Source: Escherichia coli
Lineage (GTDB): Bacteria; Pseudomonadota; Gammaproteobacteria; Enterobacterales; Enterobacteriaceae
DNA: 64,000 nucleotides
Direction: 5' to 3' (one strand)
NCBI RefSeq assembly: GCF_050920415.1
Contig: NZ_CP169309.1
The position numbers and the translations under genes were made by a program. Under the pieces are notes generated by a model that was not told the origin of the DNA, ran no database searches, and saw only the letters and a list, made by a program, of their open reading frames with translations. Shown in pieces: positions 40,214-44,862 of this stretch (positions are counted from its first letter, which is position 1; each line of letters begins with the position of its first letter).

Positions 40214-41686
40214 ATGTCCCGAATGGCAGAACAGCAGCTTTATATACATGGTGGTTATACCTCCGCCACCAGCGGTCGCACCTTCGAGACCATTAACCCG
40301 GCCAACGGTAACGTGCTGGCAACCGTGCAGGCCGCCGGGCGCGAAGATGTCGATCGCGCCGTGAAGAGTGCCCAACAAGGGCAAAAAATCTGGGCGGCGA
40401 TGACCGCCATGGAACGCTCGCGCATTCTGCGTCGGGCCGTTGATATTGTGCGCGAACGCAATGACGAACTCGCTAAACTGGAAACCCTCGACACCGGAAA
40501 AGCGTATTCAGAAACCTCAACCGTCGATATCGTTACCGGCGCGGACGTGCTCGAGTACTACGCCGGGCTGATCCCGTCGCTGGAAGGCAGCCAGATCCCG
40601 CTACGCGAGACGTCGTTTGTTTATACCCGCCGTGAACCGCTGGGCGTGGTCGCCGGAATTGGCGCATGGAATTACCCGATTCAGATTGCTTTGTGGAAAT
40701 CCGCACCGGCGCTGGCGGCAGGCAACGCGATGATTTTCAAACCGAGCGAAGTCACCCCGCTTACCGCGTTAAAGCTGGCCGAAATTTACAGCGAAGCGGG
40801 CCTGCCGGACGGCGTATTTAACGTGTTGCCGGGCGTGGGCGCAGAGACCGGGCAGTATCTGACCGAGCATCCGGGCATTGCCAAAGTGTCATTTACCGGC
40901 GGCGTTGCCAGCGGTAAAAAAGTGATGGCTAACTCGGCGGCCTCTTCCCTGAAAGAAGTGACCATGGAACTGGGCGGTAAATCACCGCTGATCGTTTTCG
41001 ACGATGCAGACCTCGATCTCGCCGCCGATATCGCCATGATGGCGAACTTCTTCAGCTCCGGCCAAGTGTGTACCAACGGCACCCGCGTGTTCGTTCCGGC
41101 GAAATGCAAAGTCGCATTTGAGCAAAAGATTCTCACGCGCGTTGAACGCATTCGCGCGGGCGACGTTTTCGATCCGCAAACTAACTTCGGCCCGCTGGTC
41201 AGCTTCCCGCATCGCGATAACGTGCTGCGCTATATCGCTAAAGGCAAAGAGGAAGGCGCGCGCGTACTGTGCGGCGGCGATGTGCTGAAGGGTGATGGCT
41301 TCGATAACGGCGCATGGGTTGCACCGACCGTGTTCACCGATTGCCGCGACGAAATGACTATCGTGCGCGAAGAGATCTTCGGCCCGGTGATGTCGCTCCT
41401 CACGTATGAGTCTGAAGACGAAGTGATTCGCCGCGCCAATGATACCGACTACGGTCTGGCGGCGGGTATCGTCACGGCGGATCTGAACCGCGCGCATCGC
41501 GTCATTCATCAGCTGGAAGCGGGTATTTGCTGGGTCAACACCTGGGGAGAATCCCCGGCGGAGATGCCCGTTGGCGGCTACAAACACTCCGGCATTGGTC
41601 GCGAGAACGGCGTGATGACGCTCCAGAGTTACACCCAGGTGAAGTCCATCCAGGTTGAGATGGCTAAATTCCAGTCCATATTCTAA
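40214..41686 (+). CDS. betB: Betaine-aldehyde dehydrogenase BetB, about 490 aa
   Basis: Aldehyde dehydrogenase family with catalytic Cys region (…[15 protein letters not shown]…); 10 bp downstream of betI. Confidence 0.9.
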
Positions 41687-41699
41687 CCAGGAGGTTTAT

Positions 41700-43388
41700 T
41701 TGCAATTTGACTACATCATTATTGGCGCCGGCTCTGCCGGCAACGTCCTCGCGACACGTCTGACTGAAGATCCGAACACTACCGTGCTGCTGCTTGAAGC
41801 GGGCGGCCCGGACTATCGCTTTGACTTCCGTACCCAAATGCCCGCTGCGCTGGCGTTCCCGCTACAGGGTAAACGCTATAACTGGGCCTATGAGACCGAG
41901 CCGGAACCGTTTATGAACAACCGTCGCATGGAGTGCGGACGCGGTAAGGGGCTTGGTGGATCATCACTGATCAACGGCATGTGTTACATCCGTGGTAACG
42001 CGCTGGATCTCGATAACTGGGCGAAAGAACCCGGTCTGGAGAACTGGAGCTACCTCGACTGCCTGCCCTACTACCGCAAGGCCGAGACGCGCGATGTGGG
42101 CGAGAACGACTACCACGGCGCTGATGGCCCGGTAAGCGTGACCACCTCAAAACCGGGTGTCAATCCGCTGTTTGAAGCGATGATTGAGGCGGGCGTGCAG
42201 GCGGGCTATCCGCGCACAGAAGACCTTAACGGTTATCAGCAGGAAGGTTTCGGCCCGATGGACCGCACCGTCACGCCGCAGGGCCGTCGCGCCAGCACCG
42301 CGCGGGGTTATCTCGATCAGGCCAAATCGCGCCCGAACCTGACTATTCGAACTCACGCCATGACCGATCACATTATCTTTGACGGCAAACGCGCGGTAGG
42401 CGTCGAGTGGCTGGAAGGCGACAGCACCATCCCAACCCGCGCAACGGCCAACAAAGAAGTGCTGTTATGTGCAGGCGCGATTGCCTCACCACAAATCCTG
42501 CAACGCTCCGGCGTCGGCAACGCTGAACTGCTGGCCGAATTTGATATTCCGCTGGTGCATGATTTGCCCGGCGTGGGCGAAAATCTTCAGGATCATCTGG
42601 AGATGTACCTGCAATACGAGTGCAAAGAACCGGTTTCCCTCTACCCTGCCCTGCAGTGGTGGAATCAGCCGAAAATCGGTGCGGAGTGGCTGTTTGGCGG
42701 CACCGGCGTGGGTGCCAGCAACCACTTTGAAGCAGGCGGATTTATTCGCAGCCGTGAGGAATTTGCGTGGCCGAATATTCAGTACCATTTCCTGCCAGTG
42801 GCGATTAACTATAACGGCTCGAACGCAGTGAAAGAGCACGGCTTCCAGTGCCATGTCGGATCGATGCGCTCGCCAAGCCGTGGGCATGTGCGGATTAAAT
42901 CCCGCGACCCGCACCAGCATCCGGCGATTTTGTTTAACTACATGTCGCACGAACAGGACTGGCAGGAGTTCCGCGACGCGATTCGCATCACCCGCGAGAT
43001 CATGCATCAACCGGCGCTGGATCAATACCGTGGCCGCGAAATCAGCCCCGGCGCGGAATGCCAGACAGATGAGCAGCTCGATGAGTTCGTGCGTAATCAC
43101 GCCGAAACCGCCTTCCACCCATGCGGTACGTGCAAAATGGGGTACGACGAGATGTCCGTTGTGGATGGCGAAGGCCGCGTGCACGGGCTGGAAGGATTAC
43201 GCGTAGTCGATGCGTCAATTATGCCGCAGATTATCACCGGCAATCTGAACGCCACGACCATTATGATTGGCGAGAAAATGGCGGATATGATTCGCGGACG
43301 AGAAGCGTTGCCGAAGAGCACGGCAAGATATTTTGTGGCAAATGGGATGCCGGTGAGAGCGAAAAAAATGAGTCGTGATTTGAACTAA
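41700..43388 (+). CDS. betA: Choline dehydrogenase BetA (GMC oxidoreductase), TTG start
   Basis: TTG start preceded by AGGAGG, giving [18 protein letters not shown]… (FAD-binding GxGxxG); the longer track ORF 41655..43388 overlaps the betB 3' end. Confidence 0.85.
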
Positions 43389-44166
43389 CTCAGGAACCTA
43401 TCAGATTGAGAGTTACCGTTCTACGATAAGGACCGAATCCTTATATAAAAAACATAGGTAACTCTCATGCTTCATATCCAGTATTCATGATGCTGTTTTT
43501 TTGCTGATGTTTTTACCAGAATATTCCTGATACAGACTATTAATTCAAGCTTATCTGCGACAGATTTCATTTTCTGGATATATTATGAGTGACAAATCAA
43601 ACAGGATATCGATCTGATTGAAATTTTATTTTATCTGAAGAAAAAGATTCGTGTTATTCTGTTTATTATAGCTGTTTGTATGACAATGGTGCTATTATTT
43701 CTGTACATCAATAAAGACAATATAAAGCTGAGTTACAGCCTAAAAATAAACCACACAACATCAGGCATACTTGTAAGCTGTGATAGCAATAATAACTTTG
43801 CCTGTCAGACCACAATGACTGAAGATGTTATTCAGCGAATTACGAGTTTTTTAGACCAGTACTAATGCTAAAAATTGCCTTGTCAAAAAAATGGTAGATG
43901 AATACCAACAAAACTCTGGGCAGTAATAAACAGCATTCTGATAGAGAGTGCCTGTATATAGCTGAAGTGACAATGACCGGGAAGGGAACCCGTTTTCAGG
44001 AATGGATGCCTGTCTTTTTCACTGTAAATATCCTGGCATTACTAATGCCAGGATATTTAAAGAAGAGGAGCATAACCATGACAGAACGGGGTTAAGTCAG
44101 GTTGTCCTTAGCGCTATTCGCAACTTCGTGCCGCCTTCAGGTTTATGTCCAGACTTCATATCTCTC

Positions 44167-44862
44167 TCAGCAATCCTCAATAATCAGATACACCGCTTTC
44201 ACCGGACCATGAACCCCGACGACTTTGATAAGCTCAATGTCCGCCGTTGAACTAGGACCACTGATGATGTTAATACATGACGGCATTCGTTCACCGGCCT
44301 GCGCTTTCTGATGCAATTTTTCTGCGAGTTGCGCTACACGCGGCAGGATTGTGCTTTTACGCAGGATAAAAAGAGAAGATTCCGGGAGCAGGCTCAATGA
44401 ACGCCCGCGCCCGGCGGCGGAAAAAAGAACCACGCCACCCGATTCGGTTAAACCATATTCAGCATATACGACGCCCACTTTAGCCTGCTCTGCTTGTGAT
44501 ATGTTCTCAATACCTTTCGCCGGATCCCAAACAACGGCATTGCATTCCTGCTGCAAACGTTCGCTAATCCCCAATTCCTCCAGCCTCGTGTCACCGCTAA
44601 TCACGACCGACTGCTCTCCCAGCTCTTTACACAGACATATTGCAGCTTCTGCGGCCTGCGCCTCGCTGGTCAGTTCACAGCGCGTCAACATAACATCGCT
44701 GGCAAACTGGATAAACGCGTCACAGCGCTGCTGTTGGTTAAGTTCGGTAAGCCGCTCGTTAGCATAGTTGTTAAGCGGCGCATCTTCTGCTTGCGGTTCA
44801 AGTCGCTGCGGGCGACCCAGTGCCTGAGCAACGTTACTCAAAAATTCGCTCCGATTATCCAT
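44167..44862 (-). CDS. ykgG: LutC-like protein YkgG, 231 aa
   Basis: Track ORF 44167..45015; start set at MDNRSEFLSNV… to give an 8-nt overlap with ykgF; last gene of ykgEFG (lutABC-type). Confidence 0.75.
   Translation of the reverse strand: MDNRSEFLSNVAQALGRPQRLEPQAEDAPLNNYANERLTELNQQQRCDAFIQFASDVMLTRCELTSEAQAAEAAICLCKELGEQSVVISGDTRLEELGISERLQQECNAVVWDPAKGIENISQAEQAKVGVVYAEYGLTESGGVVLFSAAGRGRSLSLLPESSLFILRKSTILPRVAQLAEKLHQKAQAGERMPSCINIISGPSSTADIELIKVVGVHGPVKAVYLIIEDC

What the first reader, a model, noticed from the sequence alone, without database searches (positions are those of the whole stretch)
43389..44166. ykgG–betA spacer lacks a ykgH-sized gene and contains a perfect 33-bp palindrome
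K-12 has ykgH (about 222 codons) between ykgG and betA as I recall it. Here the 778-bp AT-rich spacer holds only short ORFs. One has no ATG before its hydrophobic stretch (…IRVILFIIAVCMTMVLLFLYI…), so it looks like a decayed or non-canonically started membrane gene. At 44026..44058 there is a perfect 16-bp inverted repeat with a single-base centre (AAATATCCTGGCATTA c TAATGCCAGGATATTT). That is too long and tight-looped for a typical terminator and has no T-run, so it looks more like a dimeric protein binding site or recombination site.
Basis: partly seen in the sequence, partly recalled or inferred. Interest (0 to 1): 0.45.

Follow-up and report, generated by a model that had tools for sequence, protein, structure and literature searches.

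The report
Decayed ykgH gene plus conserved RNA hairpin
The gap between betA and ykgG holds a broken copy of the dispensable E. coli gene ykgH, and the striking palindrome after it is a single-copy hairpin found in nearly all E. coli that most likely caps the RNA ends of the two facing genes; both are ordinary.

Summary
Both observations are real. The 778-bp AT-rich spacer (43389-44166) is a ykgH pseudogene. The start codon (43585) is cut off from the membrane-segment ORF by a 1-bp deletion, and about 326 bp of the gene's middle is missing. Fifteen of 5,426 complete E. coli genomes share this allele, and NCBI's annotation pipeline (PGAP) already marks it as a pseudogene. ykgH is restricted to Escherichia and has decayed independently at least six other ways.

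The palindrome (44026-44058, extendable to 20-nt arms at 44022-44062) is far beyond chance and is not a repeat family. It is not special to this strain either:
- 5,141 of 5,426 genomes carry the site.
- 2,079 carry it in exactly this perfect form.
- K-12 has it with three substitutions.

It lies 99 nt after the ykgH stop and 108 nt after the stop of the facing gene ykgG. It sits just downstream of the region published as a putative Hfq-bound "ykgH 3' UTR" small RNA.

The best reading is an RNA stem-loop that forms or protects the 3' ends of the convergent transcripts. It would act as a weak intrinsic terminator, as an exonuclease barrier ahead of Rho-dependent termination, or both. I found no support for a protein-binding or recombination site. 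Sequence variation could not separate RNA from DNA function. Low interest.

The parts
41700..43388 (+). betA (choline dehydrogenase), 562-codon allele. A run of seven A (six in K-12) just before the K-12 stop shifts the frame and adds 6 codons (MSRDLN).
   Evidence: PGAP annotates a 1689-nt betA in the identical genome NZ_CP169399.
43407..43467 (.). Nested inverted repeat just after the betA stop: 11-nt perfect outer arms (TGAGAGTTACC/GGTAACTCTCA) enclosing an inner 7-bp hairpin. Probably a 3' structure of the bet operon; no T-run follows.
   Evidence: I9; fold -26.9 kcal/mol, z = -5.6. The arms are invariant in alignment A1.
43557..43584 (+). Retained ykgH promoter-like site, GCGACA-16-TATATT.
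   Evidence: The same hexamers are listed as the RpoD genomic-SELEX (in-vitro binding-site selection) 'constitutive promoter' of ykgH, with H-NS, in PMC3946193.
43585..43926 (+). ykgH pseudogene. ATG at 43585-43587. A 1-bp deletion at about 43592 leads to a premature TGA at 43615-43617. The out-of-frame remnant ORF carrying the first membrane segment runs to 43865. The original stop is TAA at 43924-43926.
   Evidence: PGAP marks it as a pseudogene in the 100%-identical record.
43836..43870 (+). Deletion junction. About 326 bp of the ykgH middle is missing. A 35-nt stretch at the junction is only 71% identical to intact alleles.
   Evidence: The same junction occurs in 15 complete genomes.
43970..44008 (+). 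Target of the two published northern probes for the putative Hfq-bound 'ykgH 3' UTR' small RNA. The sequence is identical here.
   Evidence: (probe sequences in PMC8175672 supplement 3), matched by eye to the sequence.
43997..44020 (+). Small hairpin CAGGAAUGGAUGCCUG followed by UCUUUUUC. It is a canonical terminator in B2-type alleles (G>U restores a 6-bp stem). Here and in K-12 an A.G mismatch weakens it.
   Evidence: terminator call in L013; folds; alignment.
44022..44062 (.). The palindrome. Perfect 16+1+16 core at 44026-44058; 20-nt arms at 95% complementarity. It folds as a hairpin on either RNA strand.
   Evidence: Single-copy in 5,141 of 5,426 genomes. The exact form occurs in 2,079 genomes.
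44167..44862 (-). ykgG (lutC), last gene of ykgEFG, convergent with ykgH.

Best explanation
The spacer is a ykgH pseudogene followed by its intact 3' untranslated region.

The pseudogene (shown). ykgH is a small, AT-rich, Escherichia-restricted membrane-protein gene that is dispensable. In this lineage a 1-bp deletion after the start codon and an internal deletion of about 326 bp inactivated it.

The palindrome (inferred). It acts as RNA, not as a DNA site. Transcribed from either strand it forms a very stable stem-loop midway between the stop codons of the convergent ykgH and ykgEFG units. There it defines or protects their 3' ends.
- In the ykgG direction the U-tract is weak, and K-12 data place a strong Rho-dependent termination region about 320 nt further on. 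The hairpin most likely serves as the exonuclease barrier to which Rho-terminated ykgEFG transcripts are trimmed. It may add some weak intrinsic termination.
- In the ykgH direction it lies 5 nt (extended arms: 1 nt) past a small hairpin plus U-tract (43997-44020). It closes the roughly 100-nt 3' UTR that RIL-seq (sequencing of Hfq-bound RNA pairs) recovered as a putative small RNA.
For: Gene decay. Alignments with K-12-type and AF34 loci show the frameshift and the deletion. PGAP annotates a pseudogene in the identical genome. YkgH homologues carry only Escherichia names where a source names them, and many of the hits are truncated. Independent inactivations are seen.

Hairpin energetics. The 76-nt context folds at -32.1 (+ strand) and -28.6 (- strand) kcal/mol, with z-scores of -6.9 and -5.2. 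The 11-bp core alone gives -16.1 kcal/mol on both strands.

Position. It lies 99 nt after the ykgH stop and 108 nt after the ykgG stop, between convergent genes.

Distribution. It is present in 95% of E. coli genomes as a single site. Every ykgH deletion allele examined keeps it.

Literature.
- The ykgH 3' UTR is a putative Hfq-bound small RNA with RNA-seq read pile-up (PMC5145812, PMC8175672). The probe targets lie at 43970-44008, directly upstream of the palindrome.
- A Rho termination region lies at K-12 324,913 (+), antisense to ykgH, with Rho score 6.7 and p = 2e-23 (PMC7815308 supplement 2). I place it about 317 nt past the palindrome from the coordinates.
- Stable stem-loops without U-tracts mark and protect the 3' ends of Rho-terminated E. 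coli transcripts (PMC6061677).
Against: - No mapped RNA 3' end at the palindrome was found. ykgG and ykgH do not appear in the Term-seq (RNA 3'-end mapping) table of PMC7815308.
- The tail after the stem is only AUAUUUA, and the consensus terminator scan did not call it.
- The small RNA could not be confirmed by northern blot with two probes.
- Variation is uninformative. The K-12 allele keeps pairing only in the ykgG-sense RNA (G.U) and the B2 allele only in the ykgH-sense RNA. No compensatory double change was seen.
- With B2-type alleles included, the 3' UTR and palindrome are not less diverse than the ykgH coding sequence (pi 0.059 against 0.018-0.035).
- Natural strains lack parts of it. 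IS1 sits inside the left arm in strain RM9088, and 5% of genomes have no site.
Confidence: 0.7

Rival explanations
1. The palindrome is a duplex-DNA operator for a dimeric regulator.
For: It is a perfect dyad. The centre base is free to vary (C, G or T across alleles), which a half-site spacer would also allow. The K-12 allele happens to contain TGGTAATACCA, which I recall (not tested here) resembles the GntR/FadR-type TGGTnnnACCA core. A weak RpoE-holoenzyme genomic-SELEX (in-vitro binding-site selection) peak is listed in the ykgG/ykgH spacer (PMC5493296).
Against: It lies at the 3' ends of both genes, far from any promoter. Arms of 16-20 bp with a 1-bp gap are much longer than usual operators. 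The TGGT...ACCA motif is absent from the perfect allele in this window and in 2,079 other genomes. It does not match the YieP motif atTTGTaTGAcaAAT that controls ykgEFG. The locus is not named in the main text of the sigma-54 ChIP-seq or SELEX papers. The authors class the SELEX peak as a non-promoter, convergent-spacer site.
Confidence: 0.07
2. The palindrome is a recombination site or the relic of a mobile element, for example a MITE or IS end, or a Xer- or integron-type site.
For: The region is a mosaic, highly polymorphic, AT-rich island. Insertion sequences land nearby, and IS1 sits inside the left arm in strain RM9088. Several different deletions end within a few tens of bases upstream.
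Against: There is a single copy per genome. The two places per genome are the two strands of one site. There are no other copies in the window. No flanking direct repeats or transposase remnants were seen. The ykgH deletion endpoints lie 130 bp or more upstream in A-rich runs, not at the palindrome; one IS1-associated deletion (SW07163) ends about 40 nt upstream. There is no Rfam or repeat-family match.
Confidence: 0.03
3. The palindrome lies inside a real small-protein gene: the 65-codon ORF at 43898-44095 (+), which has a hydrophobic stretch WMPVFFTVNILALLMPGYL.
For: The ORF is open in the window, K-12 and B2 alleles (read by eye). It is annotated as hypothetical protein WP_015674588.1 in strain AR_0077.
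Against: The differences between alleles are almost all amino-acid-changing (about 10 non-synonymous to 2 synonymous, by eye). An internal candidate start, ATG at 44006, is ATT in B2 alleles. No gene is annotated there in the curated K-12 record. The ORF starts inside ykgH in another frame.
Confidence: 0.04
4. The palindrome has no function and persists by descent in a region under weak selection.
For: Diversity in and around it is no lower than in neighbouring sequence. Natural disruptions and losses exist. Arm substitutions in K-12 and B2 alleles are not compensated.
Against: A 33-41-nt near-perfect dyad is kept in 95% of genomes across phylogroups that differ by 6-12% in the flanks. Most changes fall in the loop or are transitions that keep G.U pairing on one strand. 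It sits exactly where a 3' stem-loop is expected.
Confidence: 0.12

Closest known systems
E. coli K-12 ykgH (b0310) and its published putative 3'UTR-derived Hfq-bound small RNA ('ykgH 3' UTR', Melamed 2016; Bar 2021)
   Same: The synteny is the same (betA - ykgH - convergent ykgG). The promoter-like site is the same. The last 18 codons and the 3' UTR are 98% identical. Both northern probe targets are identical. The hairpin sits at the same place.
   Different: The coding sequence here is destroyed by a frameshift and a deletion of about 326 bp. The hairpin is perfect here, whereas K-12 has three substitutions (A>G next to the loop, a different centre base, and G>A giving a C.A mismatch in the ykgH-sense RNA).
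Protective 3' stem-loops of Rho-terminated transcripts (Dar & Sorek 2018, PMC6061677)
   Same: It is a stable stem-loop downstream of a stop codon without a proper U-tract, with a Rho-dependent termination region a few hundred nt further on in K-12.
   Different: No 3' end has been mapped here. The stem (16-20 bp) is longer than typical. It is shared by two convergent units.
Bidirectional intrinsic terminators between convergent genes
   Same: It lies between convergent genes, has a symmetric hairpin, and has A/T-rich outer arms (AAATAT/ATATTT) that read as an A-tract and a U-tract on both strands.
   Different: The U-tract is short and interrupted (4 U in 8). It fails the consensus scan. K-12 bicyclomycin data indicate Rho dependence in the ykgG direction.
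REP/BIME extragenic palindromes
   Same: It is an extragenic palindrome at gene 3' ends that could stabilise upstream mRNA.
   Different: It is single-copy and AT-rich, has no REP consensus, and has no other copy in the genome.

Membership tests
ykgH orthologue (pseudogene) | Position between betA (or hyxB) and the convergent ykgG | tested here: met
ykgH orthologue (pseudogene) | Nucleotide homology to ykgH across the start, first membrane segment and last codons | tested here: met
   91-94% identity over 43585-43835 and 98% over 43871-43926.
ykgH orthologue (pseudogene) | Intact reading frame of about 222 codons | tested here: not met
   A 1-bp deletion gives a stop after 10 codons, and about 326 bp are deleted. 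It is therefore a pseudogene, not a functional member.
Intrinsic (Rho-independent) terminator | Stable G+C-containing stem-loop downstream of a stop codon | tested here: met
   An 11-bp core at -16.1 kcal/mol on both strands, 99 and 108 nt from the two stop codons.
Intrinsic (Rho-independent) terminator | U-tract of about 7-8 nt immediately 3' of the stem | tested here: not met
   The tail is AUAUUUAA (+) or AUAUUUAC (-). The consensus scan did not call it.
Intrinsic (Rho-independent) terminator | RNA 3' ends mapping just after the stem, insensitive to Rho inhibition | not testable with these tools
   No ykgG or ykgH entry in the Term-seq table of PMC7815308. The bicyclomycin data show Rho dependence downstream.
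Protective stem-loop of a Rho-terminated transcript | Stable stem-loop lacking a U-rich tail | tested here: met
Protective stem-loop of a Rho-terminated transcript | Rho-dependent termination downstream of the stem-loop | tested here: inconclusive
   Literature only, and for K-12: a Rho region at 324,913 (+), about 317 nt past the palindrome, found with 800-nt scoring windows. Not measured in this strain.
Hfq-dependent 3'UTR-derived small RNA | Hfq-associated RNA-RNA chimeras from the region | not testable with these tools
   Reported for K-12 by RIL-seq (PMC5145812; PMC8175672 supplement 1). The sequence is identical here.
Hfq-dependent 3'UTR-derived small RNA | Discrete, Hfq-dependent transcript seen on northern blots | not testable with these tools
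   The published attempt with two probes failed.
Hfq-dependent 3'UTR-derived small RNA | Terminator hairpin followed by a long U tail for Hfq binding | tested here: inconclusive
   The palindrome lacks it. The small hairpin plus UCUUUUU 5 nt upstream qualifies only in B2-type alleles.
Repeated extragenic palindromes (REP/BIME, MITE) | Many copies per genome | tested here: not met
   One site per genome. No other copy in the window.
Transcription-factor operator | Match to a known motif, or placement at a promoter | tested here: not met
   It lies at the 3' ends of both genes. It does not match the YieP motif. The locus is not named in the main text of the sigma-54 datasets.

The most novel reading that the evidence does not exclude
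The ykgH 3' end region (the last codons, the roughly 100-nt UTR and the palindrome) could be an autonomous RNA module that outlives its host gene. It would be a small regulatory RNA and/or a shared bidirectional 3'-end element for ykgH and the lactate-utilisation operon ykgEFG. That would explain why three independent ykgH deletions all stop just upstream of it.
Probability: 0.15. Interest if true: 0.4.

Novelty: new member of a known kind. Interest (0 to 1): 0.15.

Why it matters
It matters little beyond annotation. The spacer should be labelled as a ykgH pseudogene, as PGAP already does in an identical genome. The palindrome should be labelled as a conserved 3' stem-loop shared by ykgH and ykgEFG. 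It is not evidence for a new regulator or recombination system.

Two modest uses follow. E. coli offers natural variants of this hairpin: perfect, K-12-type, B2-type and IS1-disrupted. These could test how one stem-loop serves two convergent transcripts. The unverified ykgH 3'UTR small-RNA candidate is retained here although its host gene is dead.

Tried and rejected
1. Other species. A scan of one genome per species with YkgH found only two short E. coli-contaminant contigs, so no comparison outside E. coli was possible. The protein search showed YkgH is essentially Escherichia-only. The one divergent metagenome hit (L008) lacks the UTR.

2. Covariation. I collected allele classes of the hairpin. 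They show only loop changes and two uncompensated transitions, one favouring each strand. This is inconclusive for RNA against DNA and for strand.

3. "The 3' UTR is unusually conserved". Three sequences suggested this at first (98% against 90%). I rejected it once B2-type alleles were added (pi 0.059 in the UTR against 0.018-0.035 in the coding sequence). The contrast reflects a mosaic, divergent haplotype in this window (betA is only 93.7% identical to K-12).

4. Sigma-54 promoter. The palindrome contains TGGCAT-N5-ATGC. Neither ykgG nor ykgH is named in the main text of the K-12 sigma-54 ChIP-seq or SELEX papers, and the K-12 allele loses the -12 GC on one strand.

5. YieP operator. YieP is the repressor of ykgEFG. 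Its motif does not match.

6. Rfam. Only sub-threshold microRNA-hairpin noise.

7. Own promoter for the small RNA. No sigma-70-like site was found between 43871 and 43970.

8. Small-protein reading of the 65-codon ORF. The substitution pattern argues against it.

9. Origin of the odd 35 nt at the deletion junction. I found no source elsewhere in ykgH or in the window.

Full report
**Observation**

betA (+ strand) ends at 43388. ykgG, the last gene of ykgEFG (- strand), ends at 44167. The 778 bp between them is 30-39% G+C, against 55-61% in betA, and holds only short ORFs.

The 33-nt palindrome AAATATCCTGGCATTA-c-TAATGCCAGGATATTT is at 44026-44058. It extends to 20-nt arms with one mismatch (44022-44062). 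No shuffle of the window produced a match. It is the only tight inverted repeat in the 64 kb with separate arms; the other seven listed are weaker overlapping palindromes.

**The missing gene**

The spacer is 100% identical to E. coli MFDS1022581, where PGAP annotates an incomplete "hypothetical protein" pseudogene. In K-12 and most E. coli the same interval is 1,104 bp and carries the 222-codon ykgH.

Alignment shows what happened here.
- The conserved ATG is at 43585.
- One base is missing two to three codons later (ATGAGTG-ACAAATC). The start-codon frame therefore stops after ten codons (TGA at 43615-43617).
- The YkgH sequence continues out of frame (...QIKQDIDLIEILFYLKKKIRVILFIIAVCMTMVLLFLYINKDN...) and ends at 43865. 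This is the "hydrophobic ORF without an ATG".
- About 326 bp of the middle of the gene is then absent. A poorly matching 35-nt junction (43836-43870) replaces it.
- The last 18 codons and the stop (TAA at 43924-43926) follow.

Fifteen of 5,426 complete genomes share this junction.

YkgH has only weak, sub-threshold similarity to the N-terminus of Wzz-type chain-length determinants. The sources that name its homologues all call them Escherichia, and many of the hits are truncated.

I found further independent inactivations:
- a 118-bp deletion in NRZ14408;
- a deletion of about 570 bp in ECCNB12-2 and AR_0077;
- an ISKpn26 insertion in ES10;
- an IS3-family insertion in SK77;
- a frameshift plus IS1 in RM9088;
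- an IS1-associated deletion in SW07163.

Loss of ykgH is thus recurrent and ordinary.

**The palindrome is common and single-copy**

A 57-nt query around it finds one site, matched on both strands, in 5,141 of 5,426 genomes. The exact 33-mer is present in 2,079 genomes, including O157:H7. It is therefore neither a repeat family nor a peculiarity of this strain.

The allele classes are as follows.
- Perfect: this window, AF34, NRZ14408 and KK05-19.
- K-12 type: CATTGGTAATAC, with A>G next to the centre, a G centre, and G>A in the right arm.
- B2 type: a T centre and C>T in the right arm.
- ECCNB12-2 and AR_0077: a G centre and altered outermost bases.

The centre and its neighbours vary freely, as a loop would. 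The K-12 arm change keeps pairing (G.U) only in the ykgG-sense RNA. The B2 change keeps pairing only in the ykgH-sense RNA (and inspection). There is no compensatory double change. Variation therefore cannot separate an RNA function from a DNA function, and it cannot choose a strand.

**Context**

The palindrome lies 99 nt after the ykgH stop and 108 nt after the ykgG stop. The two genes converge on it.

It folds strongly on either strand: -32.1 and -28.6 kcal/mol in a 76-nt context, with z-scores of -6.9 and -5.2. The 11-bp core alone gives -16.1 kcal/mol. The outer arms are AAATAT/ATATTT, so the core stem is followed on both strands by AUAUUUA. This short interrupted U-run fails the consensus terminator scan.

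Five nt upstream (one nt from the extended arms) is a small hairpin plus UCUUUUUC (43997-44020). It is a canonical terminator in B2 alleles. An A.G mismatch weakens it here and in K-12.

**Literature**

- RIL-seq listed the "ykgH 3' UTR" as a putative Hfq-bound 3'UTR-derived small RNA with a candidate binding motif (PMC5145812).
- A follow-up study gave it a high small-RNA score. [quoted passage not shown]
- Those probes target window 43970-44008, directly upstream of the palindrome. The sequence there is identical.
- The RpoD genomic-SELEX (in-vitro binding-site selection) promoter assigned to ykgH, GCGACA-16-TATATT (PMC3946193), is retained at 43557-43584. The remnant may therefore still be transcribed.
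- In the opposite direction, bicyclomycin profiling in K-12 found a strong Rho termination region at 324,913 (+), antisense to ykgH (Rho score 6.7, p = 2e-23; PMC7815308 supplement 2). The K-12 palindrome is at about 324,564-324,596 (derived). The Rho region is therefore about 317 nt beyond it in the ykgG direction. The scoring windows were 800 nt, so this placement is coarse.
- No Term-seq 3' end is listed for ykgG or ykgH.
- Dar and Sorek showed that Rho-terminated E. coli transcripts end, after exonuclease trimming, at stable stem-loops without U-tracts (PMC6061677).

**Interpretation**

The best-supported reading is that the palindrome works as RNA. It would be a shared stem-loop that forms or protects the 3' ends of the two convergent transcription units. 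For ykgEFG it is probably the exonuclease barrier ahead of Rho-dependent termination. For ykgH it closes the 3' UTR that Hfq pulls down. Position, energetics and the literature support this; it has not been demonstrated.

Three findings weigh against a stronger claim.
- With B2 alleles included, the UTR and palindrome are no less diverse than the ykgH coding sequence.
- The high local conservation I first saw reflects a mosaic, divergent haplotype. betA here is only 93.7% identical to K-12, and ykgG 94.8%.
- Some strains disrupt or lack the element.

**Rivals**

- A duplex-DNA operator is unlikely. The site is at gene 3' ends, its arms are far longer than usual operators, it does not match the YieP motif that represses ykgEFG, and the locus is not named in the main text of the sigma-54 datasets. 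A weak RpoE-holoenzyme SELEX peak in this spacer remains unexplained.
- A recombination site or mobile-element relic is unlikely for a single-copy site whose neighbouring ykgH deletion endpoints lie 130 bp or more upstream, with one IS1-associated deletion (SW07163) ending about 40 nt upstream.
- The 65-codon ORF across the palindrome is annotated in one genome. Its changes between alleles are almost all non-synonymous.
- Rfam has nothing.

**Verdict**

The pseudogene is real but ordinary and already annotated. The hairpin is conserved and unannotated, and it belongs to a familiar kind. Interest is low.

Noticed in passing
window 43355-43388: betA here is 562 codons. A run of seven A (six in K-12) just before the K-12 stop shifts the frame and adds MSRDLN. 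PGAP annotates the same 1689-nt allele in other E. coli.
   Followed up: partly
window 43407-43467: A nested inverted repeat right after the betA stop has 11-nt perfect outer arms and an inner 7-bp hairpin (-26.9 kcal/mol, z = -5.6). The arms are invariant across three divergent alleles. No T-run follows, and there is no Rfam hit.
   Followed up: partly
window 41655-44862 against L002: The bet-ykgH-ykgG stretch is unusually divergent for E. coli core genes. betA is 93.7% and ykgG 94.8% identical to K-12, while the adjacent ykgF is 99%. This suggests a recombination mosaic or an old haplotype.
   Followed up: partly
L018 (E. coli RM9088) 725-1510: IS1 is inserted inside the left arm of the palindrome with a 9-bp target duplication, ATATCCTGG. 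This is a natural knock-out of the hairpin.
   Followed up: partly
L021, L022 (B2-type strains FDAARGOS_1255, MS1679): In these strains the autotransporter gene hyxB, not betA, lies upstream of ykgH. The ykgH-hairpin-ykgG arrangement is unchanged.
   Followed up: no
window 43898-44095 (+); L019 185-382: A 65-codon ORF overlaps the ykgH 3' end, the UTR and the palindrome. It is annotated as hypothetical protein WP_015674588.1 in strain AR_0077. It is open in all alleles seen, but the changes between alleles are nearly all non-synonymous.
   Followed up: partly
L005, L006: Tiny contigs in the Nocardioides malaquae Y6 and Amycolatopsis orientalis KCTC 9412 assemblies encode protein stretches 100% identical to E. 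coli K-12 YkgH (residues 1-79 and 208-222). They look like E. coli contamination of those assemblies.
   Followed up: no
K-12 NC_000913.3 about 324,913 (+), corresponding to inside the ykgH remnant or deleted region here: A published Rho-termination region lies antisense to ykgH, and a weak RpoE-holoenzyme SELEX peak lies in the ykgG/ykgH spacer. The SELEX peak is unexplained.
   Followed up: partly
window 43836-43870: The 35 nt at the ykgH deletion junction match intact alleles at only 71%, against 91-94% for the adjoining remnant. No source for them was found elsewhere in ykgH or in the window.
   Followed up: partly
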